A stretch of DNA of 62,825 nucleotides, filler included, from Candidatus Huberarchaeum crystalense (GCA_002790315.1; 10 parts of 10 records of this genome joined end to end with filler, not necessarily neighbours in it), one strand, 5' to 3'; shown: positions 2,291 through 61,142, numbered from the whole stretch's first letter. Translations and numbers: made by a program. Notes: generated by a model not told the origin, from the sequence alone.

Positions 2291-2576
2291 AAACTTTATA
2301 AATCTCCTGCCTTACAGGGGATTTAATACAGAAAAGTAAAAACTCTTCTATAATGTCTTTTAGCAAGGTAGTTTAAAAAGGGTTGCACTCTGTAGAAGCA
2401 TATGACTTTTGGGTATAAAAACCCTAAAAACAAGCATTTTTAATAAATTATAAATAACATAAATTATATTTAAAAATCTCTATTTTGCGCGCATTTTATA
2501 CATCATTAATCTCCCTTTAATTTTAAAAAGTTTTAAAATGCGCGATTTTGTTAGTTCTTTTTATTTTTACTTTAAA

Positions 2577-4193
2577 TCAGCTGCTCCACAGCATAATTGC
2601 CAACACCATAAAAATTAGCGCAATAGTTATAACAAAGGGCAAAACAAATTTCAAAAATCCCGCGGCAATGGCAGTATTTGGCAAAAGTTCATAACCATCT
2701 CCTCCAAGTAGCTTTGTGATTCGTTCAACTTTGCCATAGCTTGCTGTTACATACTCTGCGCCTGCTTTTGCTTCTTTGATTAGGCGCGAAATTTCATAGA
2801 TATGCTCTGGCAACACTTCAAACATATATTTTCCATTGTTGCGTTGATGATTGTCAGTACTGCAAGCAATAATTTTGCATTTAAATGTTTTTTCAAGTGA
2901 TTGTAAAAGCTGCCGTCCATCAAGGTTGTTTGAATCAAATAAAATAAAAACCATTTTTTTCCCAACATCAAGATACGCAACCCTAATATCACACCCCCCA
3001 ACAATACCTTGCGATGTTCCTAGAATTATATATTCTTGCTCTATCTTTGCTAATTTGGTTTTTAAAGATGTTGCTTCTTCAATAAGATTCAGACTCTGCA
3101 ATGAACTTGCATACATAACACTAAAGTCTGAATCAATACTAGAACTGTGCATATCTACAAATATGTCACTGCTCGCTAAACCAACACCTATATCTATATC
3201 TCCGTTGCCGTCTGCAAAAGCTAATGTCTTTCCGCCAATGTTCAACAAGCATATGCGATCTCCAATTACTGCTTTTGCTTTTTCACCAACTTGCTCGAGT
3301 GAAGCTGATTTAATATCACCAACCAATTTCATTACATCTTCATTTTTTACAATATCTAAATCGTGCGTGCAAGGACCGTGAAAAGTCAATGAATTTTCAA
3401 TATTATCATGAAAAATTTTTGGCATATTTGAGCTTCCAATATTTCCTATTGGCCCCGGATGAACATATGGTACTAAAAAAGTTGCTTTGTGTTGTCCCTT
3501 TTTTTGATCTTTCCATGTGTCAAATGACAACACATGAACCATTGCTTTTCCATCTTTTGATAGTTTAAGCAAAGATTTTTCTGATTTTGTGCTGCCTGTA
3601 AACCAGTCAGTAAAAAACGCAACCAACAACTCAAATAAATCCACTTTTGCAAAAACCTTGAACGGCTCTGAAATTGAATAAATAACAAAAATCACAAGCA
3701 GCGAAAACAAAAAACTCATTGCTATAATCTTTCTTCCAAGATTAGTGTCAGATGGATGCGAATAAAACAGAAAAAAAATCGCCACAATAATAAACAAACG
3801 GATGCTGCTTTTTACCAAAGCACGACCTATTGAATTTCCCAAAGTTCGCAAAAAGAACACCCTAATACCAAAACTTAAAGAAAGCCCAATCGCCAAAGCA
3901 TAAAACTCCAAGTGAAATATAAGCCCTATTGCATAAAATCCACATTCTACAACATTTGAAAGGAGATTAATAAACTCAGATTGCTGAAATGAGAGATTTT
4001 TATCTCTAACTAAAAAAGTTGAAGCAAGCGAAGATATTCCAAACAGCACAAAGAACCAAACATTGTTAAAAATTATAGAAAAAATCAAAGGTAAAATAAG
4101 ATTAACATAAAACAGCAAACCTTGTTTTGATGATTTTTGTATTAAAGGAGCTGATTTATCTAAATATTTAGTCAAAGCAATTGGGTCTGCCAT
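2577..4193 (-). CDS. DUF2070-family archaeal membrane protein
   Basis: N-terminal TM helices; PYVHPGPIGNIGSSNMP, HGPCTHDLD, DMHS, DSNN and TDNH motifs; C-terminal TM helix. Confidence 0.75.
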   Translation of the reverse strand: MADPIALTKYLDKSAPLIQKSSKQGLLFYVNLILPLIFSIIFNNVWFFVLFGISSLASTFLVRDKNLSFQQSEFINLLSNVVECGFYAIGLIFHLEFYALAIGLSLSFGIRVFFLRTLGNSIGRALVKSSIRLFIIVAIFFLFYSHPSDTNLGRKIIAMSFLFSLLVIFVIYSISEPFKVFAKVDLFELLVAFFTDWFTGSTKSEKSLLKLSKDGKAMVHVLSFDTWKDQKKGQHKATFLVPYVHPGPIGNIGSSNMPKIFHDNIENSLTFHGPCTHDLDIVKNEDVMKLVGDIKSASLEQVGEKAKAVIGDRICLLNIGGKTLAFADGNGDIDIGVGLASSDIFVDMHSSSIDSDFSVMYASSLQSLNLIEEATSLKTKLAKIEQEYIILGTSQGIVGGCDIRVAYLDVGKKMVFILFDSNNLDGRQLLQSLEKTFKCKIIACSTDNHQRNNGKYMFEVLPEHIYEISRLIKEAKAGAEYVTASYGKVERITKLLGGDGYELLPNTAIAAGFLKFVLPFVITIALIFMVLAIMLWSS

Positions 4194-4265
4194 ATTGATA
4201 CTCTACATCCTATTTTTGACCAAAGATATTAGGTCTGCCATAAAGTTTTTGTTTAGGGTTGTAAA

Positions 4266-4393
4266 TAACAACATTTATTAGATTTGCTATTTACTATAAT
4301 AGAATTATGCAAAGAGCATATTTTTAACAAAACATTTATTAGATTTGCTATTTACTATAATAGAATTATGTAGGGGGCATATTTTTAACAAAA
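4266..4393. repeat. ~61-bp tandem duplication containing the stop codon of the DHH gene
   Basis: acatttattagatttgctatttactataatagaattatg at 4271 and 4332, each followed by ...gcatatttttaacaaa. Confidence 0.9.
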
Positions 4394-5409
4394 TTTATAA
4401 ATTTTTGAAAGTATTTTACAGGAATAATCAAACCTGCTGCGCGCTCATGTCCTCCGCCGTTGCTGTCAGGAATTTGGCTTGCGATTTGCCGCATTAAATG
4501 GTTGCAGTCAAGCAATTTGGACCTGCACGAGATTTTTATCCTTTGATTTTTAAACTGCGACTTACTAACAACAAAAATAGTATTATCACTATACTTGTCT
4601 GCCATAAGATTTGAAATTATGCTCGAGCTGCAGAACTTTGAGTCAATTTGAACAAAAAGCACAACATCATTTAACTTTTCAATTTTTGATAGGCAAATCG
4701 CTTTTTTAAGATTTTTTTGAAATTCATCTGCTTGCTCTAAATATTCTGATGGCTTTGTTAGAAAATCCTCTGCTGAATTTTGCTCGAGTAAAAATTTAAT
4801 TAAACCACTACTTATTGCATTAAAATTAAAATTTTTTTTGTTAATCTCAACAACCCCAGTAATGACTTCAGACAATTTTAAAACAGAATCTTTGTCAAAT
4901 TTTTCAACAAAATTTTTGCAATCCTCATCATTTTTATCACCCATATCACCGATTATACCAACTGCTGCTATAAATGCTCTTTTTTTAATTGCTTCATATT
5001 GCTCAAACAATGAAAACACAACAAACGACGCGGGTTTATAAACTTCAGGATCATTTTCGCGCGGATTTATATAAAAAACATTGTTATCTCTAATGATTTT
5101 ATCAGAAATCATATGATGATCAATAATTAAAATTGGTTGTTTTTGGGGGTTTTCAATTTTTTGAGGTAAAACAGGCAAATCCACAAAAATGCTTGGAGAA
5201 AACACAACAACTGATTGAATTTCATCAATGCTTAAACACTGTAATTTCACATCTTGAATACTCAATTCTTTGGTTAAATATGCAAACATCAAAGCCGCAC
5301 TACAAAGCCCATCAGTGTCGCTGTGGTAAAATATGTGTGGTGAAAGTTTCAATTTATTAGTTTGTGATTGCTTTATTTGATCAAAAAAACAGTTAATGTC
5401 TGTTAGCAT
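4366..5409 (-). CDS. DHH/DHHA1 phosphoesterase (RecJ/NrnA-like)
   Basis: H.D.DG, VD, IDHH and GD motifs; C-terminal S.RS and GGGH.RAAG. Confidence 0.85.
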   Translation of the reverse strand: MLTDINCFFDQIKQSQTNKLKLSPHIFYHSDTDGLCSAALMFAYLTKELSIQDVKLQCLSIDEIQSVVVFSPSIFVDLPVLPQKIENPQKQPILIIDHHMISDKIIRDNNVFYINPRENDPEVYKPASFVVFSLFEQYEAIKKRAFIAAVGIIGDMGDKNDEDCKNFVEKFDKDSVLKLSEVITGVVEINKKNFNFNAISSGLIKFLLEQNSAEDFLTKPSEYLEQADEFQKNLKKAICLSKIEKLNDVVLFVQIDSKFCSSSIISNLMADKYSDNTIFVVSKSQFKNQRIKISCRSKLLDCNHLMRQIASQIPDSNGGGHERAAGLIIPVKYFQKFINFVKNMPPT

Positions 5410-5454
5410 AAGATTTTTGTAAAAGTTTAAGAATTAAAATATTGCTTGAAATGT

Positions 5455-5622
5455 ATTTTTTAAAATAATGGTCGAGTATATGCTTTTAGATAATGTTTGG
5501 TGTGTGTTTTTTAAAATAATGTTTAGGTATATGTTTTTAGATAATGTTTGGTGTGTGTTTTTTAAAATAATGGTCGAGTATATGCTTTTAGATAGTGTTT
5601 GATGTGTGTTTTTTAAATAATA
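5455..5622. repeat. ~52-bp imperfect tandem repeat (x3) 3' of tRNA-Trp
   Basis: The unit tttttaaaataatggtcgagtatatgcttttagataatgtttggtgtgtgt recurs at about 5456, 5507 and 5558. Confidence 0.88.
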
Positions 5623-5630
5623 TTTGGGAG

Positions 5631-5701
5631 TGGGGCTTAAGAGATTTGAACTCTTATGGGCCGGTCTGGAGCCGACTATGTTGCCGTTACATCAAAGCCC
5701 C
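5631..5701 (-). tRNA. tRNA-Trp(CCA), intronless
   Basis: Acceptor GGGGCTT/AAGCCCC-A; anticodon arm GTCGG-CTCCAGA-CCGGC; T arm AAGAG-TTCAAAT-CTCTT. Confidence 0.93.
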
Positions 5702-5742
5702 TTAATGTTTTTAAAATAGAAATTTTGCGTTGTAAAAAATAT

Positions 5743-6219
5743 ATGGTAATGGAACAAACACTTGTTTTAATCAAGCCTGATGCATTACAGCGCGCACTTG
5801 TTGGCGAAATAATTCATAGATTTGAGCAAAAAGGTCTAAAAATTGTTGGATTAAAAATGGTTCAAATAGATAAAAAATTGGCTGAAGAACATTACAAACA
5901 CATAAAAGAAAAACACGGCAATGTCTTTGAAAGATTGCAAAAAATGATTATAAGCGCACCTGTAATTGCGATGATTGTTGGTGGGGTTGATGTAGTTAAA
6001 ACAGTTCGATTAATTATTGGAACTACAAAAGCGCGCGGAGCAGAAGCAGGGACAATCCGCGGCGACTTGGCAATGAGCATACAAAACAATATAGTTCATG
6101 CGTCTGATTCACGAGAAAATGCAAAAATAGAGATTAACCGCTTTTTTAAACCTAAAGAAATATTTGATTGGAATTGGTCAATATGTAATTCAATCTATGC
6201 AAGCGAAGAGATAGCTTAA
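5743..6219 (+). CDS. ndk: Nucleoside diphosphate kinase
   Basis: EQTLVLIKPDA, GTIRGD, N.VHASDS. Start moved to the ATG at 5743 (or 5749) because the longer ORF overlaps tRNA-Trp. Confidence 0.96.
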   Translation: MVMEQTLVLIKPDALQRALVGEIIHRFEQKGLKIVGLKMVQIDKKLAEEHYKHIKEKHGNVFERLQKMIISAPVIAMIVGGVDVVKTVRLIIGTTKARGAEAGTIRGDLAMSIQNNIVHASDSRENAKIEINRFFKPKEIFDWNWSICNSIYASEEIA

Positions 6220-6286
6220 AAATTTACACTTAACATTTTATAATAAATATAATAACTTATTAACAAACAACAATCACAATAAAATT

Positions 6287-7156
6287 ATGGTTTTACTTGA
6301 AGTTTTTAATGTTAAAAAAGCTTACAATAATAAGATATATTTCGCTTTATATGTAGCAATTTTAATGATTGTATCGGCTTTGCTCTTAAAATATCTCTTT
6401 TTATATATTTATGGGGGCGATGTTACTCACAATTATTTTCTTTTGCTTGTGTGGGTTGGTATTTTTATGGCAATTATTCCAAAACTTTTTATAGAAGCAG
6501 AAGAGGTTTGTCCAATCAACTGGCATCCAATTCAAAAAAAATGGGTTGAGGGCTGCACTTTTATTGAACGGCACAAAGACATTCTTTTTATTTTTGTTAT
6601 ACTCTCAATCTTAATCACAATATTTTTCTTTACAATTTGCTATTTTAATGTGTTTGGGAGTAATTTTGGCGCGCCACAAAAGCAAGAAATTGAAAAAATT
6701 AAAGAGATTGCAACTTCTTTGTCTGGCTATGCAAAGAGCGACATTGGTGGTGGTTTTTGGGATAAATTTTCAATAATCTTTGCACAAAATACAAAAATAA
6801 GTATTTTATTTTTTCTATTATCAGTACTTGAAATGTTTGGCGCGCTCTTTTTATTAAGTTGGAATGCTTCTGTATTTGGCGTGTGGTTATCAGAAATCGC
6901 AAAGCAAGCATCTCAGCAAACAAACAATATAATCTTAATTTTAAGCACTTCGGCAACATCTTTTTTAGGGATTTTACCACACGCTATTTTTGAGTTTAGT
7001 GGGTTTTTTCTGGCTGCGATCGCAGGAGGAATTTTAGCAATAGGTATCCATTTATATAAAGATAATGCTCTCTTACTTCAGATTAAAGACAGTATTTTGG
7101 TTTTACTTGCAGGCCTGGTTTGCATACTTATAGGCGCAATTATTGAGGCATTATAA
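6287..7156 (+). CDS. SpoIIM/DUF95-family membrane protein
   Basis: Multiple TM helices; IF..N, WNA..FG, LPHAIFE..G..LA..AG and A.IE motifs. Confidence 0.75.
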   Translation: MVLLEVFNVKKAYNNKIYFALYVAILMIVSALLLKYLFLYIYGGDVTHNYFLLLVWVGIFMAIIPKLFIEAEEVCPINWHPIQKKWVEGCTFIERHKDILFIFVILSILITIFFFTICYFNVFGSNFGAPQKQEIEKIKEIATSLSGYAKSDIGGGFWDKFSIIFAQNTKISILFFLLSVLEMFGALFLLSWNASVFGVWLSEIAKQASQQTNNIILILSTSATSFLGILPHAIFEFSGFFLAAIAGGILAIGIHLYKDNALLLQIKDSILVLLAGLVCILIGAIIEAL

Positions 7157-7518
7157 TGATAACAGAAAGGAGTAAAGCAAAAATAAAAAAAATAGCACAA
7201 AATAAGCAAAAAGAAATAATTAAACAATTGCAAAAACAATCAATTGTCGAAGATTTGACAAATAAAGGATATACTTTAAAAGCAGGACTTAAATATGGTT
7301 GTGATTTTAGAATCTACGCAAAAGGAGTAGGGATAAAACAAGGAAAGAAAAAACAAGAAGAGCATAGTTTTGCTATATTAGATGTTGTTAAAGGCAAAGA
7401 CAGCATCAAAATTAAAGATCTTGTAGCAAAAGCTAGGGTTGCGCGCGCCACTAATATGAAATGGCTTATTAGTATTGACAAGAAAGAGTTGTTAGTAAAT
7501 GTTGGGTGGGTAGATTAA
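7156..7518 (+). CDS. endA: tRNA-splicing endonuclease, minimal catalytic-domain protein
   Basis: DL..KGY.LK.GLKYGCDFRIY, HS and RVA motifs of the catalytic C-terminal domain; only 120 aa. Confidence 0.8.
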   Translation: MITERSKAKIKKIAQNKQKEIIKQLQKQSIVEDLTNKGYTLKAGLKYGCDFRIYAKGVGIKQGKKKQEEHSFAILDVVKGKDSIKIKDLVAKARVARATNMKWLISIDKKELLVNVGWVD

Positions 7519-7545
7519 TTTAATCTATTTAAAAAGATTTTTGGA

Positions 7546-7701
7546 AGCAAAAACAAAAACAAGCTTATTGCCGAGTATGCATTAAAAGATATGGTTAAGC
7601 TGATTGGCGTTTCTGGATATAGAGTTGCAAAATCTGTTTCTGAGAAGTTAAAGACAATCTTGCCCTAAATTGAAGAACTTGAAAAAGAATTAATAAATTA
7701 G
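7546..7701 (+). pseudogene. Relic C-terminus of a YhcG/DUF1016 PD-(D/E)XK protein
   Basis: SKNKNKLIAEYALKDMVKLIGVSGYRVAKSVSEKLKTILP*IEELEKELIN* matches the family pattern EYAL....PIGVS.Y......LP.IEELE.EL; there is an internal stop and no start. Confidence 0.7.
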
Positions 7702-7793
7702 AAAAATATCTAATTAAAAATTTATGAACAAGAAGACAGCAGATTTTATTTTCTATGCAAGCGAAGGCTCAAAACAAAAGGGAGAAGCAAAAA

Positions 7794-9194
7794 ATGATTG
7801 ACTTGCCCAAAAAGCTCGCAGAATCTCAACTAAAAATAGGACTTGAAACTCACTTACCTTTAAAGACAAAATCCAAACTTTTTTGTTCTTGCTCAACAAA
7901 AAAAAGTGGCAGACCAAACACGCAAGTTTGCGAGGTTTGTTTAGGTCTTCCTGGATCAAAACCAACTTTAAACAACGCAGCAGTAAAAGCAGCAATAAAA
8001 CTTGGTTTGGCACTTGGATGCAAAATAAATTCACCTAGCTTTTTCTCAAGAAAGACCTATTTTTACCCAGACATGTCAAAAAATTTTCAAATAACCCAAT
8101 ATGAAATCCCAATTGCTGAAAATGGGTTTTTAATGTTAGGTGACAAAAAAATAAGAATAAAAAGAGTTCATATTGAAGAAGATCCTGCCAAGATTGTTCA
8201 TAAAGATAATTATTCTTTGATTGATTATAATCGTTCGGGTCGTCCTTTATTAGAAATTGTCACAGAACCAGATTTAAATTCTCCTAAAGAAGCGCGCGCA
8301 TACCTGCAAAAACTTTCGTTAATTGCAGAATATTTGCAGATTTTTGATCCTGCTGATGAAGCATCAATGAAGTCAGATGTTAATGTTTCAATATTTGGTG
8401 GAAGTCGTGTTGAAATTAAAAATATAAGTGGATTTAAAGACGCTGAAAAAGCAATTAATTTTGAGCAAATTCGCCAAAAGAATGTTTTATTAACAGGCAA
8501 AAAAGTAGTGCAAGAAACAAGGATGTATTCTCCTGTTGCTGGATCTACAACAACTGCGCGCATAAAAGAAACAGAATCAGGCTATGGATATATTTTTGAG
8601 CCTGATTTGCCTTATTTGGAGTTTTCTTTGCAAGAAATTGAGAGAGTAAGGAACTCTCTTGAAGAATTGCCTGACCAAAAAAAGCAAAAATTTGTGAAAC
8701 TTGGGCTAAATAAAGCGACAGCAGAATCTCTTGTTTCTGAAAAGGCACTATCAGAGCTTTTTGAAGAACTATCAAAAAAATTTGACAAAAATTTGGTTGC
8801 AACTTATTGTTTAATTTTACTTAAAACAACCAATTATAATGGAATAAAGGTAGAGCAAATAAATATTAATCCTGAATTTGCAAAAATTTTAGAGCAAGTA
8901 AACACAAATAAAATCAACAAACATGAAGCAGAGGAAATTATTCGTAAAATAGTTGAATTGAAAATTAAGAATAAAGCCCCAGCAAAAATTAATTGCTTGT
9001 TTGATGGGGAGTCTTGGGATTTTGATTTAAATGAGATTGTTGAAAAAGTGCGCGCACAAAACAAAGAAAAAGACCTTTCAGATCCAAAGATTTTGAATTT
9101 TTTAATAGGGCAGGTTTTAAGAGAAACAAAAGGAAAAGGCAATATTCAAAAAATTATCAAGATTTTGAAAAGAGCAAAAGGCAAAAACAAATAG
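7794..9194 (+). CDS. gatB: Asp/Glu-tRNA amidotransferase subunit B
   Basis: IGLETH, SKLFCSC, RKTYFYPD, IEED, DYNRSG.PL.EIVTEP, D.NVS, QETR. Start may instead be 7755. Confidence 0.95.
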   Translation: MIDLPKKLAESQLKIGLETHLPLKTKSKLFCSCSTKKSGRPNTQVCEVCLGLPGSKPTLNNAAVKAAIKLGLALGCKINSPSFFSRKTYFYPDMSKNFQITQYEIPIAENGFLMLGDKKIRIKRVHIEEDPAKIVHKDNYSLIDYNRSGRPLLEIVTEPDLNSPKEARAYLQKLSLIAEYLQIFDPADEASMKSDVNVSIFGGSRVEIKNISGFKDAEKAINFEQIRQKNVLLTGKKVVQETRMYSPVAGSTTTARIKETESGYGYIFEPDLPYLEFSLQEIERVRNSLEELPDQKKQKFVKLGLNKATAESLVSEKALSELFEELSKKFDKNLVATYCLILLKTTNYNGIKVEQININPEFAKILEQVNTNKINKHEAEEIIRKIVELKIKNKAPAKINCLFDGESWDFDLNEIVEKVRAQNKEKDLSDPKILNFLIGQVLRETKGKGNIQKIIKILKRAKGKNK

Positions 9195-9219
9195 ATAAAA
9201 ACAAACAAATAAGCAAAAA
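9189..9219 (+). repeat. 31-bp dispersed repeat, copy 1 (copy 2 inverted at 31514-31544)
   Basis: aaatagataaaaacaaacaaataagcaaaaa is identical at both loci. Confidence 0.7.
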
Positions 9220-9311
9220 ACACAAGCAAGAAAAACAAAAAAAATAAAGCAAGAGCAAAAGAATAAAAATACATTTGATTGAGTTATATGGTAAAAACAA
9301 TATTCACTCAA

Positions 9312-9707: not shown

Positions 9708-9733
9708 NNNNNNNNTTCTTAAAAATATAGTAT

Positions 9734-10075: not shown

Positions 10076-10219
10076 ATATTATTTATATAATTTGAATAAA
10101 TATTACAAGCTTTATAACAAGTAATGCATTCCACAAAAATAAGATATATATCTAAATTCTAAAGAAGTAGTGCTAATTAAAATAATTAAAATAAATGCAT
10201 TTGTTTTGGTAAAAAATCT

Positions 10220-53158: not shown

Positions 53159-53382
53159 NNNNNNNNNNNNNNNNNNNNNNNNNNNNNNNNNNNNNNNNNN
53201 NNTTAATTAATTAANNNNNNNNNNNNNNNNNNNNNNNNNNNNNNNNNNNNNNNNNNNNTTTGTTGGTTTAGTGCTATTTCTTGTTCAACTTTATTTTCAG
53301 GAGAGTCTTGTTTGTTAGGAGTTTTTTCTACCATATTATTTATATAATAATATTTATATAATACATTTACAACAAAAATAAT

Positions 53383-55101
53383 ATGGCAAACAGTTTAGAA
53401 GAACCGCTTTTTTGGGCAGATAATTTAGCACGAAGAATAATTAATAAGCGACCTAACAAGTTATTTTATACTATTGAAGCAGGTATTACACCAAGTGGAA
53501 ATATGCATATTGGAACTTTGCGAGAAGTGATGATTTGCAGTTTTGTTGAGCGCGCGCTTCTCGATCTTGGCAAAAGTGTGCGCTTTCTTTTTATATGGGA
53601 TGATTATGATCGTTTAAGAAAATTACCCTCTGATCTTCTCAACAGAGAAGAAATGCAGAAATATCTTTACTTTCCTGTTAGCAAAGTTTTTGATCTGTGG
53701 GGGTGCCATTCTTCTTGGGCAGAGCATTTTGAAAAACCGTTTGAAGACCAGCTTAAAATTATAGGAATTAGTCCAAAGTATATATATCAATCTGTAGAAT
53801 ATACAAAGGGCACATATGCTGAAGAATGTTTGCGCGTACTTGGGAATAAACAAACAATTACTGAAATTTTAAACAAGATCAAAACAAATAAAACAGCTGC
53901 TGAGGATTTTTTGCCAATTCAAATTTATTGTGAAAAATGCAGCAAGGACACAACACAAATTATTGAAAATCAAGGAATAAATTATAAATATTCTTGTTCG
54001 TCTTGCGGTTTTGAGGGAGCAGTTAATATATTAAAGGATTTTCATTATAAATTAGGTTGGAGAGTTGATTGGCCTATGAGGTGGAAATTTTATGATGTTG
54101 ATTTTGAATCTAGTGGAAGTGATCATTCAGTAGCTGGCGGTTCGTTTGACACAGGAAAAGAAATTATAAATCAAGTCTGGGCGCGCGAACCACCCCTTCA
54201 CCAACATTATGGTTTTATTATTGGGCGAGAAGGAGGCAAGTTGTCAAAATCAGTTGGTGGAAACATAAGTCCTGGCGATTTGTTCGAAGTATTTTCTCCA
54301 TCAATAGTGCGGTTTTTATTTGCAAGGGCGCGGCCTGAAACAGAGTATAGCATTGTCATTGATGATGAGAGTTATTTAAAAACATTTGCTGATTTTTTCA
54401 AGCACGAAGACATATATTTTAATTCAAATAATATTCGGCAAGGAATAAGTGAAAAGAATATAAAACAGTTTTGCCGTATTTATGAAATGAGTGTTGTTGG
54501 AACACCAAGTGTCATAAAACCAGTGCAACCTGACATTCGCAATCTTGTATTTTTGATGAATTTTTTCCAAACACCTCAAAAAGCGCTTGCTTATCTTAAA
54601 AAAAACCACAAAATTAAATTAAGTGTAAATGACGAAGAATTGTACTTGCAATACATGACTTGCTGTCAAAATTGGCTAAAAAAATATGCTCCTTCAAAAT
54701 ATAAATATAAACTTAGGCAGGGGGTAGATCAAGAAATTAAAAAGCAAATATTACCTTTTGAAATTGAAATAATAAAGCAAATTATAAAACTACTAAATCA
54801 GCCAAAAGTAAGTGATGAGCTTATAAAAACAAAACTTGAACAAATTACAACAGCAGATGCGCTTGACAAAAAGGCATTTTATGCTAAGATTTATCAAATA
54901 TTGTTCAGAAAAGACGAAGGTCCAAACTTTGCAGGTTTTTGCCAATACATAGGAAAAACGAAAATAGTTAAAATTTTAAAAGAATACATAAAAAAAGAAT
55001 CAGAAACAGATAATAAGATTATAGAAGAACATAAAGACAATATAAAAAAAGAAAAAGCAAAAAGAAGAATCAACAAACCAGAAAAAGAAAAGAGTGCATA
55101 A
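53383..55101 (+). CDS. lysS: Lysine--tRNA ligase, class I
   Basis: FWAD..A, GITPSG..HIG, DD.D.LRK, KL.WRVDWPMRW, DH...GGS, KLSKS.G, GP. Confidence 0.96.
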   Translation: MANSLEEPLFWADNLARRIINKRPNKLFYTIEAGITPSGNMHIGTLREVMICSFVERALLDLGKSVRFLFIWDDYDRLRKLPSDLLNREEMQKYLYFPVSKVFDLWGCHSSWAEHFEKPFEDQLKIIGISPKYIYQSVEYTKGTYAEECLRVLGNKQTITEILNKIKTNKTAAEDFLPIQIYCEKCSKDTTQIIENQGINYKYSCSSCGFEGAVNILKDFHYKLGWRVDWPMRWKFYDVDFESSGSDHSVAGGSFDTGKEIINQVWAREPPLHQHYGFIIGREGGKLSKSVGGNISPGDLFEVFSPSIVRFLFARARPETEYSIVIDDESYLKTFADFFKHEDIYFNSNNIRQGISEKNIKQFCRIYEMSVVGTPSVIKPVQPDIRNLVFLMNFFQTPQKALAYLKKNHKIKLSVNDEELYLQYMTCCQNWLKKYAPSKYKYKLRQGVDQEIKKQILPFEIEIIKQIIKLLNQPKVSDELIKTKLEQITTADALDKKAFYAKIYQILFRKDEGPNFAGFCQYIGKTKIVKILKEYIKKESETDNKIIEEHKDNIKKEKAKRRINKPEKEKSA

Positions 55102-55235
55102 AAAGCGCGCAGCCTAAGTAAAAGAGCAAATTTTGCCAAAATAATTTATATATTATTATGTTATTTAATAATATATAGATATAAAAATAAAACAAACAAA
55201 AAAGATTAGTAATGCATATAACCACTTTGTTTGTT

Positions 55236-55309
55236 GGGCTCGTAGCTCAGCCTGGTAGAGCAGCAGACTTTTAATCTGTTGGTCGCGGGTCCAAATCCCG
55301 TCGAGCCCA
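55236..55309 (+). tRNA. tRNA-Lys(TTT)
   Basis: Acceptor GGGCTCG/CGAGCCC-A; anticodon arm GCAGA-CTTTTAA-TCTGT; atypical T loop TCCAAAT. Confidence 0.95.
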
Positions 55310-55735
55310 CTTAAAAACAAAAAATCAAGAAAAACAAACAAAACTAATGTTATATTGCTTTTGTCGTTTTCTGGAAGAGTAAATTTGCATCTTCTCCTTT
55401 TTTTCATTTATATCTTGCTGAAGTTCATATAAAACTTTAAATTTTTTAATCCCTTTTTTATATCATACATTCTTTTCAGTAATAATTCCCCTTTCTTTTG
55501 GTTTATTTGTTGTTCTAATTTTAGCTTTTTTTTGTTCAACTTTTATATGTTAGACTTCCTTTAGATTGTAATTTTATTTCACCCGACAAATTTCTCCAAT
55601 TTCTATTAAGTTCTGTTCGGTCTAGGCCTTTAATAAATATTTATCTTTATTTATAAATTTATATAAAATATATATTGGTTTTCTTTCTCTTTTTTTACTT
55701 TTGGGTTTTTAATCTTTATTTTTTATTCTATTTTT

Positions 55736-56632
55736 TTAGCTTTCTTCTTTTTTTTCTTTTTCTGGTTGTTTTTTACCTTTAATTGTAATATTATCTGTGT
55801 TTCTGCTGATTTTATCAGTGATCACAGTCAGTTTTTTTACATTATCTACAAAAACAGGAAGTATTTTTTCAACAATATTGCTCATTGCAACTAGTTCTGC
55901 TGTTAATTTTTGGATGTGTTCATTCAAGGTTTTTGTTTGTTCTGTTAATTCAATGTCATTGCGTTCAATCGCAGAATTAATGTGCTTAGTTGTTACTTCT
56001 ATTGCTTTGATTTTTGCTGAAGTTTCTTTTTGTGACTCATTAATTTCATCTGCAAAGGTCTCATATTGTTTAAGTTTTTCAGCTACAATAATCTCAACTA
56101 TTCTTTCTAATTCTAACTTAATTTCTGCAATTATTTCGCCCTTTGCTTTTGCAATTCCATCAGCAATTTCCTGTGAGATGTTTGAGGTTGTAATGTTTTG
56201 ACTGCTTTCTATTTTCATTTCTGAATCAAGATAGGGTGGGGGCAAATTTGTTTGAGGATGTGGCAATGAGGGAATGACATTTACAGGGATGTTTTTTGAA
56301 ACAGGAACTTCGAAATTTTGTGAGCTAGAAACAGGAAGAGAATATGGACTTTGCTGGACTTTTTTTGATTCGACTGGCGTTGGCATTAAAGGTTGTGTTT
56401 GTGGAAAAGATGGAGGAGGTATATTTTGTAAATCAGGTAAGGTAGGAGGTAGGGGTTGTTGTAGAGGTTTATTTTGTTCTTCGATAATTCTCTTTAATTC
56501 TGCTTGAATTATTGCTTCCTGAATATCTGTCATTGAAATACCTTCATTAGAAAGGCCAGCTATGATTTGCTTGTTAGTGTACCCATTTTGTTTTAATGCA
56601 AGTACTTTTTGTAACAAGGCACCTTTTTCCAT
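55736..56632 (-). CDS. Hypothetical protein: small helical N-domain, Pro-rich linker, coiled coil
   Basis: Composition and heptad pattern; no recognised family. Confidence 0.7.
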   Translation of the reverse strand: MEKGALLQKVLALKQNGYTNKQIIAGLSNEGISMTDIQEAIIQAELKRIIEEQNKPLQQPLPPTLPDLQNIPPPSFPQTQPLMPTPVESKKVQQSPYSLPVSSSQNFEVPVSKNIPVNVIPSLPHPQTNLPPPYLDSEMKIESSQNITTSNISQEIADGIAKAKGEIIAEIKLELERIVEIIVAEKLKQYETFADEINESQKETSAKIKAIEVTTKHINSAIERNDIELTEQTKTLNEHIQKLTAELVAMSNIVEKILPVFVDNVKKLTVITDKISRNTDNITIKGKKQPEKEKKEES

Positions 56633-56703
56633 ATATTATTTATATAATGGTTAAGGGTTTGTATCGCAAATTTTTATAAATTTTTGCTTTGTAAAAATAG
56701 TTT

Positions 56704-59700
56704 ATGCCTTACAACCCGTTAAAAACAGAAAAAGAAATCCTTAACTTTTGGGAAAAAGAGCAAATCCCGCAGAAAATAACAGATTTTCAAGCGAACTTTG
56801 TGCGAACTGGTCGCAAGTTTTATGTTCTTGATGGACCCCCTTTTTTAACTGGGGTTCCGCATTTAGGTCATACACTAACATCTACACTTAAAGATGTAAT
56901 TTCAAAATTTAAACAAATGCAAGGTTATGCTGTTTGGTGGCAGCCAGGATTTGATACTCACGGCCTTCCGATCGAGGTTAAAGTTGAAGAAAAATTAGCA
57001 ATTCATTCTAAGCAAGAAATTCGAAAAAATGTTAGTGCATTTATAGCAGAATGCCAAGAATATACTAATCATGGACTTGAAGTTTGGTCACCATTATATA
57101 AAAAATTAGCTTGTTGGCGTGGATGGAAACAACCATATTTAACAAAATCTAATGAATTTATTGAAAGTGCCTGGTGGACTTTTAAACAACTTTATAACAA
57201 AGATTTATTGCGATGGGGGGAAAAGCCAGTATGGTGGTGTCCTCGTTGCCAAACTGTTTTAACAGGATATGAATCTACAGACGCATATCGCGACAAAACA
57301 GATCCTTCAATTTATATTAAATTTCCTATTGTCAATAAAAAAAATGAATTTTTGCTTGTTTGGACAACAACACCTTGGACATTAGCAGCAAATGTTGCTA
57401 TAATTGCGCACCCAGATGAAATTTATATAAAAGCAAAATATGATGATGAGATTTTAATCTTAGCAAAAAAAAGAATAGAACCCATTGCTGAAGAATCTAA
57501 AAATACAAATTATGAAATCCTCGAAGAATTTATAGGAAAAAACCTTGATGGCTTGGAATATTTGCCGATCATTGACTGCAATCAACAGCGCGAACTTTCT
57601 AAAAATCTCAAAACCCACAAAGTTTATCTTTCAATTCCTTTACTAAAGCAAAAAGCAGCAGGAAAAATTGCAGCAAAAAAAGAAATTGAACAAGAAATTG
57701 ATTTTAGTCATGTGGTTGATATGGAAACAGGTTCTGGATTAGTACATTGCGCGCCAGGACACGGAGATGTTGATGCTAAAATTGGAAAACACTATGGCTT
57801 GTTATCTGTTTCTCCTCTTGACGACGAATGCAAATTCACTGAAAAAGTTGAACAATGGCGGGGGGTTTTTGTAAAAGATGCTGACAAATCAATTATAGAA
57901 CATCTTGATAAAAACAATAAACTTTTTTTCAGCACAACAATTACACACTCTTATCCTGTTTGCTGGCGATGTAAGACTCCTTTAATAACAAGATTAAGCA
58001 ATCAACTTTTTCTTAATATATCTTCACTAAAACCAAAAATGAAAAAATTCGCAAAAGAAGAAGTATATTGGAGTCCAAAATTCGCAGAAACACAATTTTT
58101 GAATTGGATTGATGAAGCTGATAATGATTGGCCAATTTCGCGCGACAGAGTTTGGGGGATTCCAATTCCTTTATGGAAAGATGAAGATGGAAATGAAGAA
58201 GTAATTGGCTCAATTAAAGAATTAAAAGAGAAAAGTACAGAAAATTTGCCTGAAAATTTAGATTTGCATTTAAATAGAATAAGTAGCATCAAAATAAAAA
58301 GCAAATCAGGAAAAGAAATGAAACACTGTGGATATACCTTGGATGTTTGGTTTGATTCAGGGTCAGCGGGCTGGGCTTCACTTCATTACCCATTTTCAAA
58401 TATAAAAGAGCAAATTAACACTCCTGATTTTATTGCAGAAGGAGAAGATCAGATTCGCGGGTGGTTTTACAGCCAAATGGTGCTATCAACAGCAGTTTTT
58501 GATCAGCCAGCGTACAAAAAATGTTTGATGAGTGCATTTGTTTTAGATGAAAAAGGTGAAAAAATGTCTAAAAGTTTAGGAAATGGTGTTGATCCCCAAG
58601 ATGTAATTCATAAATATGGGTCTGATTTGCTTAGATTGTATCTTTTATGGGATGCTCCGTGGGACAGATTAAAATTTAACACAAAAATTCTTAGCAAAGG
58701 AATAAAAAACATAATTATAATTGATAACATACTTAACTTTTACAAAACATATTGTGAAAAAAATACAGGTAAAATAAACAGCGATGATCTAAAAAAAGAA
58801 GACAAATATATTTTGTCCAAAATAAACAGCGATGATCTAAAAAAAGAAGACAAATATATTTTGTCCAAAATAAACAATTTAATTAAAAGCACAACACAAG
58901 ACCTTGAAGATTTACAGCCCCATTTAGCAATCAAAAAAATTATTAATTTTGGCGTAAATGATTTAAGCAGAAATTATATAAAAGCAATAAGAGAACGCAT
59001 TAAAGAGAATAAAAAAGAAAAAAACAATATTTTATTAGTTTTATATTATGTTCTTGATCGCTATTTAAGATTGATGGCTCTTTTTGTACCTTTTTTTGCA
59101 GAATATTGCTGGAATCAGATCGGAAAAACAGAATCAATTCACTTACAAACATGGCCTATATTTAACAACACTTTAATTAACAATCAAATTGAGCAGACCT
59201 ATGAGTTATTTGAAGAAATTCAAGAGCGCGCAAACTTCTTGCGAAATGAAAACAAACTTTCATTGCGTTGGCCAATTGAAAAGCTTACAATCGAATTTTC
59301 TAAGCAAGGAGACAAGCAAATGCGCGCGCTTGTTGAAGAAAATCGCGACAAAATAAAAAAAGACGGGAATACAATTAATATTGAAATAGTAGAAAAAGAA
59401 ACTGAAAAAGATATAATGATAAATTACAAAACACTTGGAAATAAATACCGCGAATTGCTAAAAAAGATTGAAGAATATGTTAAAAGCAATCCTAAAATCA
59501 TTGAAAAACTTCCAACAACAATTGAGATTGAAGGACAAGACATAACACTTGAGACAGATGACATTATATTAAGATCTGTGCCTGTAAAAGATAAAACTCT
59601 TTCTATTAAAGATAATTTCAATCTGCGAATTTCAACAAAAGAAACAGATGAAGTCAAAGAGCTGCGACTTTTGGCAGAATTAAAGCGCGCGATTCAAATA

Positions 59701-59815
59701 AATCGAAAAGACGCGAACCTAAATATAACTAACAAAATCAATTTAAAAATAAAGGGCCCTAATTTTTTAAAAAAGTTTGAAAATGAAATTAAAGATGCAG
59801 TTGGGGCAAAAGATA
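56704..59815 (+). CDS. ileS: Isoleucine--tRNA ligase (3'-truncated)
   Basis: DGPP...G.PH.GH, GFDTHGLP.E, WTTTPWTL, GSG.VH.APGHG, DW.ISR.R.WG.P.P, EG.DQ.RGWF, KMSKS. Confidence 0.97.
58771..58876 (+). repeat. Perfect in-frame 48-bp tandem duplication within ileS
   Basis: Units 58771-58818 and 58819-58866 (KINSDDLKKEDKYILS x2), bounded by aaaataaaca. Confidence 0.95.
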
Positions 59816-60035
59816 NNNNNNNNNNNNNNNNNNNNNNNNNNNNNNNNNNNNNNNNNNNNTTAATTAATTAANNNNNNNNNNNNNNNNNNNNNNNNNNNNN
59901 NNNNNNNNNNNNNNNCAGGAAAATGAAGATAAAGAAAACAACAAAAATAAATTTAAAAAAAGAGCAATCATATTTTCTGCTGTCGGGCCTGAGATTTATG
60001 AATTTTAAATTTTTTTAAATAAATATAATAATATT

Positions 60036-61052
60036 ATGGTTGATTTTTTAGATGTTTTAGCAGAATATAGGGAGTTAGTTTTTAATAAATTAATAAAAGA
60101 AATACCCCAAAAAGAACCTTATGGCCATTATGAAATTTTAAGAGATTATCCTCTGAGAAAAGGAAAATACATACGCTCTTTTTTGCTTTTGGTTGCTTGT
60201 GAAATGTTTGGAGGTGAAAAAGATAAAGCACTAAATACTGCTGTTGCAATGCAGTTGAGTGAAGAGTGGCTTTTGATTCACGATGATATTGAAGATGATT
60301 CAGACATGCGGCGGGGAAAACCAGTATTACACAAACTTTATACTATTCCTATGGCAATAAATGCTGGTGATGCTTTGTATTTAATAATGACAAAAGTGCT
60401 TCAAAGAAACAGAAATATTTTGGGCGAAGATTTGACTTTTGAAATAATGGATATTATGAATAACACACTTGAAAAGACCGCTGAAGGCCAATATTTAGAA
60501 ATATATTTGACACAAAAAGTTAAAGATAACTTTTCTGATGAGGACTATTATAAAATTGTTGAAGTCAAAACCTGTTTATATACGATTATAACACCATTAG
60601 TGTTAGGTGCGCGCATTGCAGGTGTCCCAAAAGAAAATATAAATTTTATTTACTCAGCAGGCGATGCATTAGGAAAAGCGTTTCAAATTCAGGACGACAT
60701 ATTAAATATAGTTAGCGAAGAAAAGGTATATGGAAAAGAGATTGCAGGTGATATTTGGGAAGGAAAGTTGACTTTGATGTTTGCGCATTTGATAAGAACA
60801 TGCTCTGCTGAAGAAAAAGCAAAAGTCATAGAAGTATTTAAGAAAAAAAGAAGTTATAAAACAAATGAAGATGTGCAATTTGTATTAGATTTAATAAAAA
60901 AATACAAATCTGTTGATTATGCGCGCGCAAAAGCAATTGAATTTGCCAACAAAGCAAGAGAAATTTTTGCTAAATCAACAGAAAACATAAGCAATATACA
61001 CAAAGATATGCTTTTAAGCGCCTTTGAATTTATGATTACACGAAAATCATGA
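60036..61052 (+). CDS. Polyprenyl diphosphate synthase (GGPP synthase-like)
   Basis: GK..R, LIHDDIED.S..RRG.P, NAGD, GQ, KT, FQIQDD, D..EGK. Confidence 0.93.
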   Translation: MVDFLDVLAEYRELVFNKLIKEIPQKEPYGHYEILRDYPLRKGKYIRSFLLLVACEMFGGEKDKALNTAVAMQLSEEWLLIHDDIEDDSDMRRGKPVLHKLYTIPMAINAGDALYLIMTKVLQRNRNILGEDLTFEIMDIMNNTLEKTAEGQYLEIYLTQKVKDNFSDEDYYKIVEVKTCLYTIITPLVLGARIAGVPKENINFIYSAGDALGKAFQIQDDILNIVSEEKVYGKEIAGDIWEGKLTLMFAHLIRTCSAEEKAKVIEVFKKKRSYKTNEDVQFVLDLIKKYKSVDYARAKAIEFANKAREIFAKSTENISNIHKDMLLSAFEFMITRKS

Positions 61053-61142
61053 AAAAAATTTATCCATTTATTGAATTGTGCAGACCCTTTACCTCTGCAT
61101 TAACTTCACTCGCGGTTGTTGCCGCAATATTAATTGAAGCAG
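61049..61142 (+). CDS. UbiA-family prenyltransferase, N-terminal fragment (DGGGP synthase candidate)
   Basis: MKKIYPFIELCRPFTSALTSLAVVAAILIEA has the ..L.RP motif before the first TM helix; ATGA overlap with the polyprenyl synthase. Confidence 0.6.

What the first reader, a model, noticed from the sequence alone, without database searches (positions are those of the whole stretch)
2291..61142. HIP1-like over-abundance of the palindrome GCGCGC/GCGCGCGC in an AT-rich archaeal genome
Seen: my hand count gives about 50 GCGCGC loci (e.g. 2487, 4439, 5790, 6031, 6669, 9050, 16491, 30487, 41541, 55105, 60609). About 14 of them are full GCGCGCGC octamers (7441, 8292, 10298, 13262, 20340, 24333, 27966, 37082, 45418, 49494, 53045, 53550, 59322, 60921). 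At roughly 30% GC (estimated by eye), a mononucleotide model predicts about 1 hexamer and far fewer than 1 octamer in 60 kb. Sites occur in genes on both strands, in intergenic DNA (2487, 13262, 55105) and in the SRP RNA. I saw none in the short first and last contigs. Known: cyanobacterial HIP1 (GCGATCGC) is the classic highly iterated palindrome and has been linked to cognate methyltransferases; alternating CG also favours Z-DNA. Inference: this may be an undescribed archaeal iterated palindrome maintained by methylation-coupled repair or used as a chromosome-organisation or self mark.
Basis: partly seen in the sequence, partly recalled or inferred. Interest (0 to 1): 0.85.

Follow-up and report, generated by a model that had tools for sequence, protein, structure and literature searches.

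The report
Hyper-abundant GCGCGC palindrome in an archaeon
A small AT-rich archaeal genome from groundwater carries the palindrome GCGCGC or GCGCGCGC about once per kilobase, some 60 times more often than chance, which resembles the unexplained "highly iterated palindromes" of cyanobacteria.

Summary
There are 50 GCGCGC loci (64 overlapping starts), and 14 contain GCGCGCGC, against about 1 hexamer and 0.03 octamers expected per strand at 32% GC. GCGCGC is the top-ranked hexamer under Markov orders 0, 1 and 3.

The excess acts on the DNA itself:
- It survives synonymous-codon shuffles.
- It occurs in all three reading frames.
- It occurs in intergenic DNA (3 loci against 0.02 expected).
- It biases synonymous codon choice by neighbouring bases.
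- It makes Arg-Ala the most over-represented dipeptide.

Flanking bases carry no information, so this is not a mobile repeat. Run lengths peak at 6 and 8 and stop at 9, so it is not slippage.

It is lineage-specific. None of 702 sampled DPANN genomes, and none of 17 distant relatives' loci, looks like it.

The window's first contig encodes a HinP1I-type (GCGC) endonuclease and an m5C methyltransferase. That contig is a compositional outlier. Other DPANN genomes with this enzyme avoid GCGC, and no footprint of T:G repair was found.

Best reading: an archaeal analogue of HIP, probably linked to methylation, with the mechanism unresolved.

The parts
2291..61142 (.). Eight core contigs (58.1 kb of called bases, 32.2% G+C) over which the palindrome is spread at about 0.86 loci per kb.
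7441..7448 (.). GCGCGCGC octamer (coding)
8292..8299 (.). GCGCGCGC octamer (coding)
10298..10305 (.). GCGCGCGC octamer (coding)
13262..13269 (.). GCGCGCGC octamer, intergenic, 44 nt upstream of tRNA-Ala (13313-13386)
20339..20347 (.). CGCGCGCGC, the only 9-mer and the longest run in the window
24333..24340 (.). GCGCGCGC octamer (coding)
27966..27973 (.). GCGCGCGC octamer (coding)
37082..37089 (.). GCGCGCGC octamer (coding)
45418..45425 (.). GCGCGCGC octamer inside the SRP RNA match
49494..49501 (.). GCGCGCGC octamer (coding)
53045..53052 (.). GCGCGCGC octamer (coding); a second hexamer follows at 53071
53550..53557 (.). GCGCGCGC octamer (coding)
59322..59329 (.). GCGCGCGC octamer (coding)
60921..60928 (.). 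GCGCGCGC octamer (coding)
2487..60614 (.). 36 further loci with GCGCGC (28 exact hexamers and 8 GCGCGCG heptamers), starting at 2487, 4439, 5790, 6031, 6669, 6840, 8556, 9050, 9444, 16491, 17742, 18235, 19635, 20847, 26868, 28771, 30100, 30322, 30487, 33574, 34245, 38842, 41199, 41541, 43478, 44173, 45239, 46898, 50262, 53071, 54181, 55105, 57749, 59226, 59685, 60609. Sites 2487 and 55105 are intergenic; 45239 lies in the SRP RNA.
5058..58144 (.). 10 isolated CGCGCG hexamers (the other phase), starting at 5058, 20733, 28876, 29383, 29485, 38474, 39188, 40616, 52988, 58139. Also enriched: 10 against 0.5 under order 1.
74..823 (-). R.HinP1I-family restriction endonuclease (predicted G^CGC) on contig 1. 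Whether it belongs to this genome is uncertain.
   Evidence: PF11463 E 2e-81. PDB 1ynm E 1e-79 over 244 of 250 residues. 62-68% identity to DPANN homologues.
819..1814 (-). C-5 cytosine DNA methyltransferase. It lies upstream of the endonuclease gene and overlaps it by a few bases. PCQ, ENV and QxRxR motifs are visible.
   Evidence: PF00145 E 1e-71. M.HhaI E 2e-49 over residues 7-205.
45165..45429 (+). Archaeal SRP RNA that holds two of the sites
   Evidence: RF01857, 77.2 bits, E 1.8e-17, below the gathering score of 96.5

Best explanation
GCGCGC and its overlapped form GCGCGCGC are a genuine, lineage-specific, highly iterated palindrome of this DPANN-like archaeon. It is an archaeal counterpart of the cyanobacterial HIPs.

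The force acts on the DNA word itself. It overrides codon preference, and in places it overrides the protein sequence.

I think the most likely mechanism is tied to cytosine-5 methylation of the GCGC units inside the tracts. An M.HhaI/HinP1I-type methyltransferase, such as the one on contig 1, would methylate every internal C of a (GC)3-4 tract on both strands. Densely methylated tracts would then be kept or created, either because a methyl-dependent repair or strand-marking process needs them (Elhai's G-meC model for HIPs) or through biased correction.

Shown here:
- the excess and its DNA-level nature;
- its restriction to this lineage;
- an intact GCGC restriction-modification pair in the same bin.

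Inferred only:
- that the restriction-modification contig belongs to this cell;
- that the tracts are methylated;
- that methylation drives their maintenance.
For: DNA-level force:
- In coding DNA there are 57 hexamer starts. A synonymous shuffle gives 4.9 +/- 2.3, a codon-order shuffle 2.9 +/- 1.7, and a synonymous shuffle that keeps dinucleotides 21.2 +/- 4.3. None of 300 shuffles reaches 57 in any of the three.
- Frames hold 18, 13 and 26 starts.
- Core intergenic non-RNA DNA (7,608 bp, 23.7% G+C) has 4 starts against 0.021 expected, and 19 GCGC against 1.5.
- Ala is GCG in 24 of 30 cases before a CGN codon, against 3-14% before A, G or T.
- Arg is CGC in 43% of cases after G, against 7-25% otherwise.
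- 18 of 44 Ala-Arg dipeptides are GCGCGC and 34 of 59 Arg-Ala are CGCGCN.
- Arg-Ala is the most over-represented dipeptide (59 against 33.9).

Specific word:
- Flanks carry 0.07 bits or less per position.
- G-started runs end preferentially at lengths 6 and 8. Final lengths 4 to 9 number 110, 50, 56, 8, 26 and 1.
- GCGCGCG is extended to the octamer in 27 of 35 cases. The octamer is extended in 1 of 27.

Lineage-specific:
- 17 of 17 loci of distant relatives have 0-1 hexamers.
- None of 401 plus 301 sampled genomes of two DPANN phyla combines the window's octamer density (241 per Mb) with its 14:1 skew over the reversed word.
- Relatives deplete CG in every context, including GCGC (O/E 0.4-0.9).

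Methylation link:
- R.HinP1I plus an m5C methyltransferase lie on contig 1.
- That enzyme family occurs in only 5 of 401 sampled DPANN genomes. Finding it by chance in this one 62-kb window is therefore improbable, roughly 1 in 1,000 by my estimate.
- Contig 1 has no ACGT and no GTAC (about 7.5 of each expected). The core avoids the same words.
- Precedent: each alternate HIP in cyanobacteria (GGCGCC, GCsGC, rCCGGy) comes with a cognate methyltransferase (Elhai 2015, PMC4390886; passages read).
Against: - Contig 1 is a compositional outlier. Its CG in HCGD context (CG not preceded by G and not followed by C) has O/E 1.35, against a range of 0.11-0.48 in 56 core windows. Its G+C is 37.4%, against a core maximum of 34.9%. 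It may be mis-binned, on a mobile element, or recently acquired.
- No physical link to the core was found.
- The 5 DPANN genomes with R.HinP1I homologues show no octamer excess (0-3 copies per genome).
- In 6.3- to 20-kb samples of four of those five, two avoid GCGC strongly: 0 and 1 copies in 20 kb, O/E 0 and 0.14. The other two have O/E 1.0 and 1.9.
- Isolated GCGC, the enzyme's actual site, numbers 55 against 62 expected under order 1.
- AGY, GGN and TGY codons before GCN do not prefer C.
- The deamination products are not depleted. GTGC/GCAC number 254 against 265-278. GTG/CAC have O/E 1.02 here and 0.83 in relatives.
- No Vsr and no second DNA methyltransferase is among the 51 window ORFs or the 10 extra ORFs of L006/L007.
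- A 20- to 60-fold excess is far above what I recall for very-short-patch repair at CCWGG in E. coli (from memory, no call).
Confidence: 0.4

Rival explanations
1. The hexamer and octamer are selected functional sites that do not depend on methylation. They could be a binding or recognition site for a nucleoid, repair or recombination protein, an orientation-independent 'self' signal, or a short Z-DNA-prone element that absorbs supercoiling. The restriction-modification contig would then be unrelated, or it would belong to a mobile element that exploits the host's commonest palindrome.
For: - Run lengths prefer exactly the palindromic lengths 6 and 8 and stop sharply beyond 8-9.
- Amino-acid changes are tolerated to make sites. 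In RpoB and RpoA, about 4 of the 8 sites examined differ from the residues most orthologues carry, for example Lys to Arg and Val to Ala.
- Density is similar in coding and intergenic DNA.
- HIP1 sites were reported as conserved by selection rather than replenished by biased repair (Xu et al. 2018, PMC5861425; abstract read).
- Alternating G-C runs of 6 or more and 8 or more are generally suppressed in prokaryotes (Huang and Mrazek 2014, PMC4060949; passages read). An excess therefore needs a positive cause.
- Contig 1 is compositionally foreign.
Against: - No candidate binding protein was identified.
- Spacing is indistinguishable from random: CV 0.87 against 0.95 simulated, with 27% of simulations lower.
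- There is no position bias within genes.
- One-letter variants and 5-mers are also enriched 3.5- to 8-fold. That fits a graded sequence-context process as well as it fits decay of selected sites.
- This reading leaves the co-occurrence with a GCGC restriction-modification pair as a coincidence.
Confidence: 0.3
2. A neutral, context-dependent mutation or repair bias without methylation. C and G flanked as GCG or CGC would be protected from the AT-biased decay and CG loss that affect the rest of the genome, or would be preferentially created. Alternating runs would then build up multiplicatively.
For: - CG is depleted to O/E 0.29 when neither preceded by G nor followed by C, as in relatives (0.23-0.35). 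It stands at 1.43 in GCGD/HCGC and 5.85 in GCGC.
- Against a baseline I built by hand from those factors, enrichment rises about 3- to 4-fold per added letter: GCG about 3, 5-mers about 27, hexamers 120-240, octamer about 4,900.
- C-started runs (CGCGCG, 10 against 0.5) are enriched too.
Against: - This model predicts no preference for even palindromic lengths and no stop at 8. With constant extension probabilities, about 12 runs of 10 or more letters (counted on both strands) would be expected. None is seen.
- Isolated GCGC falls 3- to 4-fold below the trend.
- GTG/CAC, the transition source, is not depleted.
- No enzyme with such a context preference was identified.
Confidence: 0.2
3. Dinucleotide (GC)n microsatellite expansion by replication slippage.
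For: The repeat unit is a dinucleotide. ATATAT is also about 3-fold over-represented under order 1.
Against: - No run is longer than 9 nt.
- The length distribution peaks at 6 and 8 instead of having a tail.
- Tracts of 3-4 units are below the length at which slippage matters (general knowledge).
- Most sites lie in reading frames without length variation between the four assemblies.
Confidence: 0.03
4. A by-product of codon, dicodon or amino-acid usage, or an assembly artefact.
For: A strict codon-pair Markov model nearly reproduces the frame 1 and frame 2 counts: 13 against 8.5 and 26 against 19.0.
Against: - That model already contains 5 of the 6 motif letters, so it says little.
- Frame 0 has 18 against 1.13 for independent codons.
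- Intergenic DNA is enriched about 190-fold.
- Three other shuffles fail to reach the observed count.
- The sites recur in three independent metagenome assemblies.
Confidence: 0.02

Closest known systems
HIP1 (GCGATCGC) and the alternate HIPs of cyanobacteria (GGCGCC, GCsGC, rCCGGy)
   Same: - A short GC-rich palindrome at roughly 0.5-2.5 copies per kb.
- An excess of tens-fold to hundreds-fold.
- Found in coding DNA (all frames) and non-coding DNA, with no longer conserved flank.
- One-letter variants are biased to the terminal positions (Elhai 2015).
- A methyltransferase that recognises an inner part of the word sits in the same bin.
   Different: - A different word: a pure alternating G-C tract that can overlap itself to give the octamer.
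- An archaeal host with 32% G+C.
- The methyltransferase is paired with a restriction enzyme rather than orphan, and its membership of this genome is unproven.
- Site conservation between genomes and 10-90 kb periodicity (Xu et al. 2018, abstract) could not be tested.
Very-short-patch (Vsr) repair shaping CCWGG-related words in E. coli
   Same: An m5C methyltransferase target would be enriched by biased T:G correction.
   Different: - No Vsr was found in the window.
- The T-containing neighbour words are not depleted.
- The four-letter site alone is not enriched.
- The size of the excess is far larger than I recall for E. coli (recalled, no call).
HinP1I / HhaI type II restriction-modification systems (GCGC)
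   Same: Contig 1 encodes a full-length R.HinP1I homologue and an adjacent m5C methyltransferase whose catalytic domain resembles M.HhaI.
   Different: Host genomes normally avoid the site. Rusinov et al. 2015 report this (PMC4687349; passages read). Samples of G364 and G333 show it here, with GCGC O/E of 0 and 0.14. This genome carries about 4 GCGC per kb (O/E 5.8).
DNA uptake sequences (DUS/USS) of Neisseria and Pasteurellaceae
   Same: About one copy per kb, present inside genes, and a measurable effect on peptide composition (recalled for DUS/USS; for this genome).
   Different: Uptake sequences are 9-12 nt and not palindromic (recalled). A 6-mer made only of G and C would discriminate poorly against GC-rich foreign DNA. 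No competence genes were examined.

Membership tests
Highly iterated palindrome (HIP-like element) | A short palindromic word over-represented at least 15-fold against Markov expectations | tested here: met
   Hexamer: 58-fold (order 0) and 22-fold (order 1). Octamer: 144-fold (order 1).
Highly iterated palindrome (HIP-like element) | Present in coding DNA in all frames and in non-coding DNA, and not explained by codon usage | tested here: met
Highly iterated palindrome (HIP-like element) | A cognate methyltransferase that recognises the word or its core is encoded in the genome | tested here: inconclusive
   A GCGC restriction-modification pair lies on contig 1. That contig is a compositional outlier and is not physically linked to the core. 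No whole genome is held.
Highly iterated palindrome (HIP-like element) | Sites conserved between related genomes beyond control words (selection) | not testable with these tools
   No relative closer than 43% RpoB identity was found apart from the same population.
Highly iterated palindrome (HIP-like element) | Periodic distribution at a 10-90 kb scale | not testable with these tools
   The longest contig is 30 kb. Local spacing is random.
HIP1 proper | The sequence GCGATCGC in a cyanobacterial genome | tested here: not met
   The word is different and the host is archaeal.
VSP-repair-driven word bias | A Vsr-type mismatch endonuclease gene | tested here: not met
   None among the 51 window ORFs or the 10 extra ORFs. 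The rest of the genome was not seen.
VSP-repair-driven word bias | Depletion of the T:G-derived neighbour words | tested here: not met
   GTGC/GCAC: 254 against 265-278. GTG/CAC: O/E 1.02 against 0.83 in relatives. GTGCGC is the commonest position-2 variant.
VSP-repair-driven word bias | Enrichment of the methyltransferase's own site when it stands alone | tested here: inconclusive
   Isolated GCGC: 55 against 62 under order 1. It is about 2-fold over order 0, and GCGC overall stands about 10-fold above the O/E in relatives.
Type II restriction-modification, HinP1I type | A PF11463 endonuclease next to an m5C methyltransferase with catalytic motifs | tested here: met
Type II restriction-modification, HinP1I type | The host genome avoids the recognition site | tested here: not met
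   GCGC O/E is 5.8 in the core. It is 0 and 0.14 in samples of two DPANN genomes that carry the enzyme.
Microsatellite | A length distribution with a long tail and length polymorphism | tested here: not met
   The maximum is 9 nt, with peaks at 6 and 8. The sites shared with L006-L008 are identical.
Dispersed mobile repeat (MITE/REP) | Conserved sequence beyond the core word | tested here: not met
   Flanks carry 0.07 bits or less per position.

The most novel reading that the evidence does not exclude
This is the first archaeal highly iterated palindrome. Fully m5C-methylatable (GC)3-4 tracts would have been driven to about one per kb as a methylation-dependent genome mark, for strand or self discrimination, repair direction or nucleoid structure. 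The drive is strong enough to rewrite codon choice and dipeptide content. It occurs in a cell that also carries a restriction enzyme for the same GCGC core, which is the reverse of the normal avoidance of restriction sites.
Probability: 0.3. Interest if true: 0.85.

Novelty: new variant of a known kind. Interest (0 to 1): 0.7.

Why it matters
- The function of HIPs is still unsettled after decades, and as far as my searches show they have been studied in cyanobacteria. I found no paper that combines GCGCGC with DPANN. None of the 5 papers holding both "highly iterated palindrome" and "archaea" is, by title and abstract, about an archaeal HIP.
- An independent case in a tiny archaeal genome, with a different word and a candidate cognate methyltransferase, would test whether methylation is the common cause.
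- It shows that a word normally suppressed in prokaryotes (alternating G-C of 6 or more letters) can be driven up some 60-fold. It also shows that a restriction site can be hyper-abundant rather than avoided.
- The word is also a compositional marker. It flags the first and last contigs of this bin as foreign.

Tried and rejected
- **Whole genome.** None is held, so genome-wide statistics and a genome-wide search for a methyltransferase or Vsr were impossible.
- **Close relatives.** The genome contigs and metagenome-contig scans with RpoB found only the same population (L006-L008) and relatives at 43% identity or less. Turnover of sites between orthologues could not be measured.
- **Context of the restriction-modification contig.**
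  - The viral-contig scan found nothing.
  - The plasmid search found only a 66% match to a Mycoplasmopsis dcm gene.
  - No sequence is shared between contig 1 and the core or L006-L008.
  - Logan contigs laid on contig 1 are short. Two records run more than 1.1 kb past its left end, but their letters are not shown.
  - Contig 1 is held in at least 24 aquifer or groundwater runs.
- **Record search.** Searching the records behind L006-L008 for PF00145 failed because the records are not held.
- **Candidate genomes with skewed octamer counts.** G031, G148, G040, G006 and G123 turned out to have 39-51% G+C and only 0.6- to 5.7-fold hexamer excess.
- **Regular spacing or position bias in genes.** Rejected.
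- **A longer hidden motif.** Rejected.
- **GCGT versus GCGA.** GCGT is less common than GCGA (161 against 294). I considered this as a repair footprint and set it aside, because it is not seen in the Ala-codon frame and can come from amino-acid usage.

Full report
**What the window is.** The window is ten contigs joined by N44-TTAATTAATTAA-N44 linkers. It is archaeal. It encodes an unsplit RpoB, an RpoA' and A'' in one 1,116-aa frame, archaeal-type topoisomerase I, aCPSF1, class-I LysRS and IleRS. It also has an SRP RNA that matches the archaeal model. The nearest RpoB sequences in 185,579 species genomes are only 37-40% identical. They come from Woesearchaeota, Aenigmarchaeota and Bathyarchaeota MAGs. 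In metagenomes the only close matches are three contigs of the same population, L006-L008, at 100% RpoB identity and 99.96-99.99% DNA identity. I call the organism DPANN-like. Its exact lineage is open.

There are 64 overlapping GCGCGC starts, which make 50 loci. Fourteen of these contain GCGCGCGC.

- On both strands the hexamer count is 128. Expectations are 2.2 (order 0), 5.9 (order 1), 43.7 (order 2) and 63.8 (order 3).
- The octamer count is 28 against 0.06, 0.19, 4.0 and 8.7.
- GCGCGC is the top hexamer under orders 0, 1 and 3.
- Other GC-only palindromic hexamers are at chance.
- Order 4 (121.5) explains the hexamer only because its two 5-mers are themselves nearly all parts of the motif.

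**It acts on the DNA, not on codons or peptides.**

- In coding DNA there are 57 starts. A synonymous-codon shuffle gives 4.9 +/- 2.3, a codon-order shuffle 2.9 +/- 1.7, and a synonymous shuffle that keeps the neighbouring dinucleotides 21.2 +/- 4.3. The maxima of 300 shuffles are 14, 9 and 33.
- All three frames are used: 18, 13 and 26.
- A codon-pair Markov model nearly reproduces frames 1 and 2 (13 against 8.5; 26 against 19.0). It already holds five of the six letters. Frame 0 shows 18 against 1.1 for independent codons.
- Core intergenic DNA outside RNA genes (7.6 kb, 23.7% G+C) has 3 loci (4 starts) against 0.02 expected, and 19 GCGC against 1.5.

Synonymous choice depends on the neighbouring bases.

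- Ala is GCG in 39% of cases before C and in 24 of 30 cases before CGN, against 3-14% before A, G or T.
- Arg is CGC in 43% of cases after G, against 7-25% otherwise.
- CGN ends in C in 79% of cases before GCN.

The protein level is affected too.

- 18 of 44 Ala-Arg dipeptides are GCGCGC and 34 of 59 Arg-Ala are CGCGCN.
- Arg-Ala is the most over-represented dipeptide of the encoded proteins: 59 against 33.9, z 4.3.
- At eight sites in RpoB and RpoA, some encode residues conserved in distant orthologues, such as one Ala-Arg. Others sit where orthologues have Lys, Val, Ser-Glu or Met.

**What the word is.** Flanks carry no information, at 0.07 bits or less per position, so this is not a mobile repeat. 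The table gives counts of maximal runs on one strand of the 58.1-kb core.

| Run | Observed | Expected (order 1) |
|---|---|---|
| Isolated GCGC | 55 | 62 |
| CGCG | 31 | 19 |
| 5-mers | 22 and 28 | about 6 each |
| CGCGCG | 10 | 0.5 |
| GCGCGC | 28 | 2.1 |
| GCGCGCG | 8 | 0.2 |
| GCGCGCGC | 13 | 0.04 |
| 9-mer | 1 | about 0 |
| Longer | 0 | not computed |

AGY, GGN and TGY codons before GCN show no preference for C. The unit is therefore longer than GCGC.

Extension probabilities single out the palindromic lengths.

- GCGC to G: 0.56.
- GCGCG to C: 0.65.
- GCGCGC to G: 0.39.
- GCGCGCG to C: 0.77 (27 of 35).
- GCGCGCGC to G: 0.04 (1 of 27).

G-started runs end at lengths 4 to 9 in 110, 50, 56, 8, 26 and 1 cases. 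C-started runs decline monotonically. This argues against slippage and against a purely multiplicative context model.

One-letter variants are enriched most at the terminal positions (3.7- to 8.2-fold over order 1). They are less enriched at positions 2 and 5 (2.1-3.6) and not at the centre (1.0-1.6). Elhai reports the same pattern for HIP1.

Spacing of the 50 loci is indistinguishable from random (CV 0.87; simulated 0.95). There is no position bias within genes.

**Background composition.** CG that is neither preceded by G nor followed by C is depleted to O/E 0.29, as in the nearest relatives at similar G+C (0.23-0.35). Those relatives also deplete GCGD/HCGC (0.19-0.54), GCGC (0.43-0.89) and CGCG (0-0.73). 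Here the same classes stand at 1.43, 5.85 and 4.44. The peculiarity is a gain of alternating G-C tracts on top of a clade-typical loss of CG.

**Lineage specificity.**

- The 17 loci of distant relatives have 0-1 hexamers each.
- The window has 14 octamers per 58 kb, or 241 per Mb, against one copy of the reversed word CGCGCGCG.
- I scanned 401 genomes of the phylum of G001 and 301 of the phylum of G002. The highest counts (for example 192 per 1.3 Mb) come with equal counts of the reversed word. The most skewed genomes reach only about 22-47 per Mb.
- Five of the skewed genomes were sampled. They have 39-51% G+C and a hexamer excess of 0.6- to 5.7-fold.
- The pattern was not found in the genomes searched. 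The tallies include four genomes flagged unpublished (G246, G399, G363, G336).
- Alternating G-C runs of 6 or more and 8 or more are reported as generally suppressed across prokaryotic phyla (Huang and Mrazek 2014, passages read).

**The restriction-modification pair.** Contig 1 (1-2190) encodes an R.HinP1I-family endonuclease (PF11463, E 2e-81; PDB 1ynm, E 1e-79, almost full length). Immediately upstream is an m5C methyltransferase (PF00145, E 1e-71). Its catalytic domain aligns with M.HhaI at E 2e-49, and the PCQ, ENV and QxRxR motifs are visible. As the partner of a GCGC endonuclease, the methyltransferase must cover GCGC. That is an inference. It would then methylate every internal C of a (GC)n tract.

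The family is rare: 5 of 401 sampled DPANN genomes. The window's enzyme is 62-68% identical to three of those. Finding it in the very window that carries a GCGC-based iterated palindrome is hard to put down to chance. It also mirrors Elhai's finding that each alternate HIP has a cognate methyltransferase.

Four results weaken a causal reading.

- Contig 1 is a compositional outlier. Its HCGD O/E is 1.35, against 0.11-0.48 in 56 core windows. Its G+C is 37.4% and its CG/GC ratio 1.21, against a core maximum of 0.61. It does share the core's avoidance of ACGT and GTAC: 0 of each, with about 7.5 expected. It may be mis-binned, mobile or recently acquired. No physical link was found.
- The five DPANN genomes with the enzyme have 0-3 octamers each. 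In 6.3- to 20-kb samples of four of them, two avoid GCGC as restriction hosts usually do. Their GCGC O/E values are 0 and 0.14, and the other two have 1.0 and 1.9. Rusinov et al. 2015 describe this avoidance (passages read).
- The expected products of m5C deamination are not depleted.
- No Vsr and no second DNA methyltransferase is in the 51 window ORFs or in 10 ORFs of extra DNA from L006 and L007.

**Verdict.** The feature is real, strong, specific to this lineage and acts on the DNA. It behaves like a cyanobacterial HIP but with a new word in an archaeon.

- I rate a methylation-linked origin or maintenance as the single most likely mechanism (0.4). The main grounds are the co-occurrence with a GCGC methyltransferase and the HIP precedent.
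- A selected site independent of methylation comes next (0.3).
- A neutral context-dependent repair bias follows (0.2).
- Slippage, codon usage and artefact are rejected.

What the sites do remains unknown. The decisive data are a methylome and a closed genome.

**Limits.**

- Only 58 kb of core sequence plus about 9 kb of extra DNA were available.
- Gene calls are my own longest-ORF calls.
- Expectations built from dinucleotide counts are inflated by the motif itself.
- Supplementary files of the cited papers were not consulted.
- The papers were read as search listings, abstracts or passages only, as stated at each citation.

Noticed in passing
window 1-2190 and 61243-62825: The first and last contigs are compositional outliers. 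Their HCGD O/E values are 1.35 and 0.63, against a core range of 0.11-0.48. Their CG/GC ratios are 1.21 and 0.90, against a core maximum of 0.61. This explains why they lack the palindrome. They may be mis-binned or horizontally acquired.
   Followed up: partly
window, core contigs 2291-61142: Several four-letter palindromes are strongly avoided: ACGT O/E 0.08, CTAG 0.18, GTAC 0.22 and CCGG 0.40. CATG is at 0.30 under order 1. ACGT is also low in the distant DPANN relatives.
   Followed up: partly
window 38127-41474 (-): RNA polymerase subunits A' and A'' are encoded in a single 1,116-aa frame. In L007 the frame is 1,141 aa from an upstream ATG. RpoB is unsplit. Sampled genomes of G001's phylum have RpoB in two pieces.
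   Followed up: no
window 45165-45429 (+): The SRP RNA scores below the gathering threshold of the archaeal Rfam model (77.2 against 96.5 bits). Its core passes the bacterial small-SRP model (45.6 against 40 bits).
   Followed up: no
window 2291-2442; L006 9799-9950, L007 7143-7294, L008 7292-7443: A 152-bp stretch at the start of the 30-kb contig recurs at 97% identity just beyond the rpoA end of the rpoB-rpoA contig in three metagenome assemblies. It is either a repeat or a contig junction.
   Followed up: no
window 2045-2117: Word depth roughly doubles or more here in runs X1 and X24, and several alternative short contigs end between 1800 and 2190. This suggests a repeated or strain-variable sequence at the right end of the restriction-modification contig.
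   Followed up: no
window 11644-12795 (+); L007 10322-11605 (+): Two separate FtsZ/tubulin-family genes in the same organism.
   Followed up: no
window 35278-38022 (-): A 915-aa protein fragment that runs from one contig end to the other. It has DUF11, DUF7507 and MopE-like repeats and is probably a large surface protein.
   Followed up: no
G364:C4 (L040) and G333:C18 (L041): Two AT-rich DPANN genomes that carry R.HinP1I homologues have 0 and 1 GCGC in 20 kb (about 7 expected). This is a clean example of restriction-site avoidance.
   Followed up: partly
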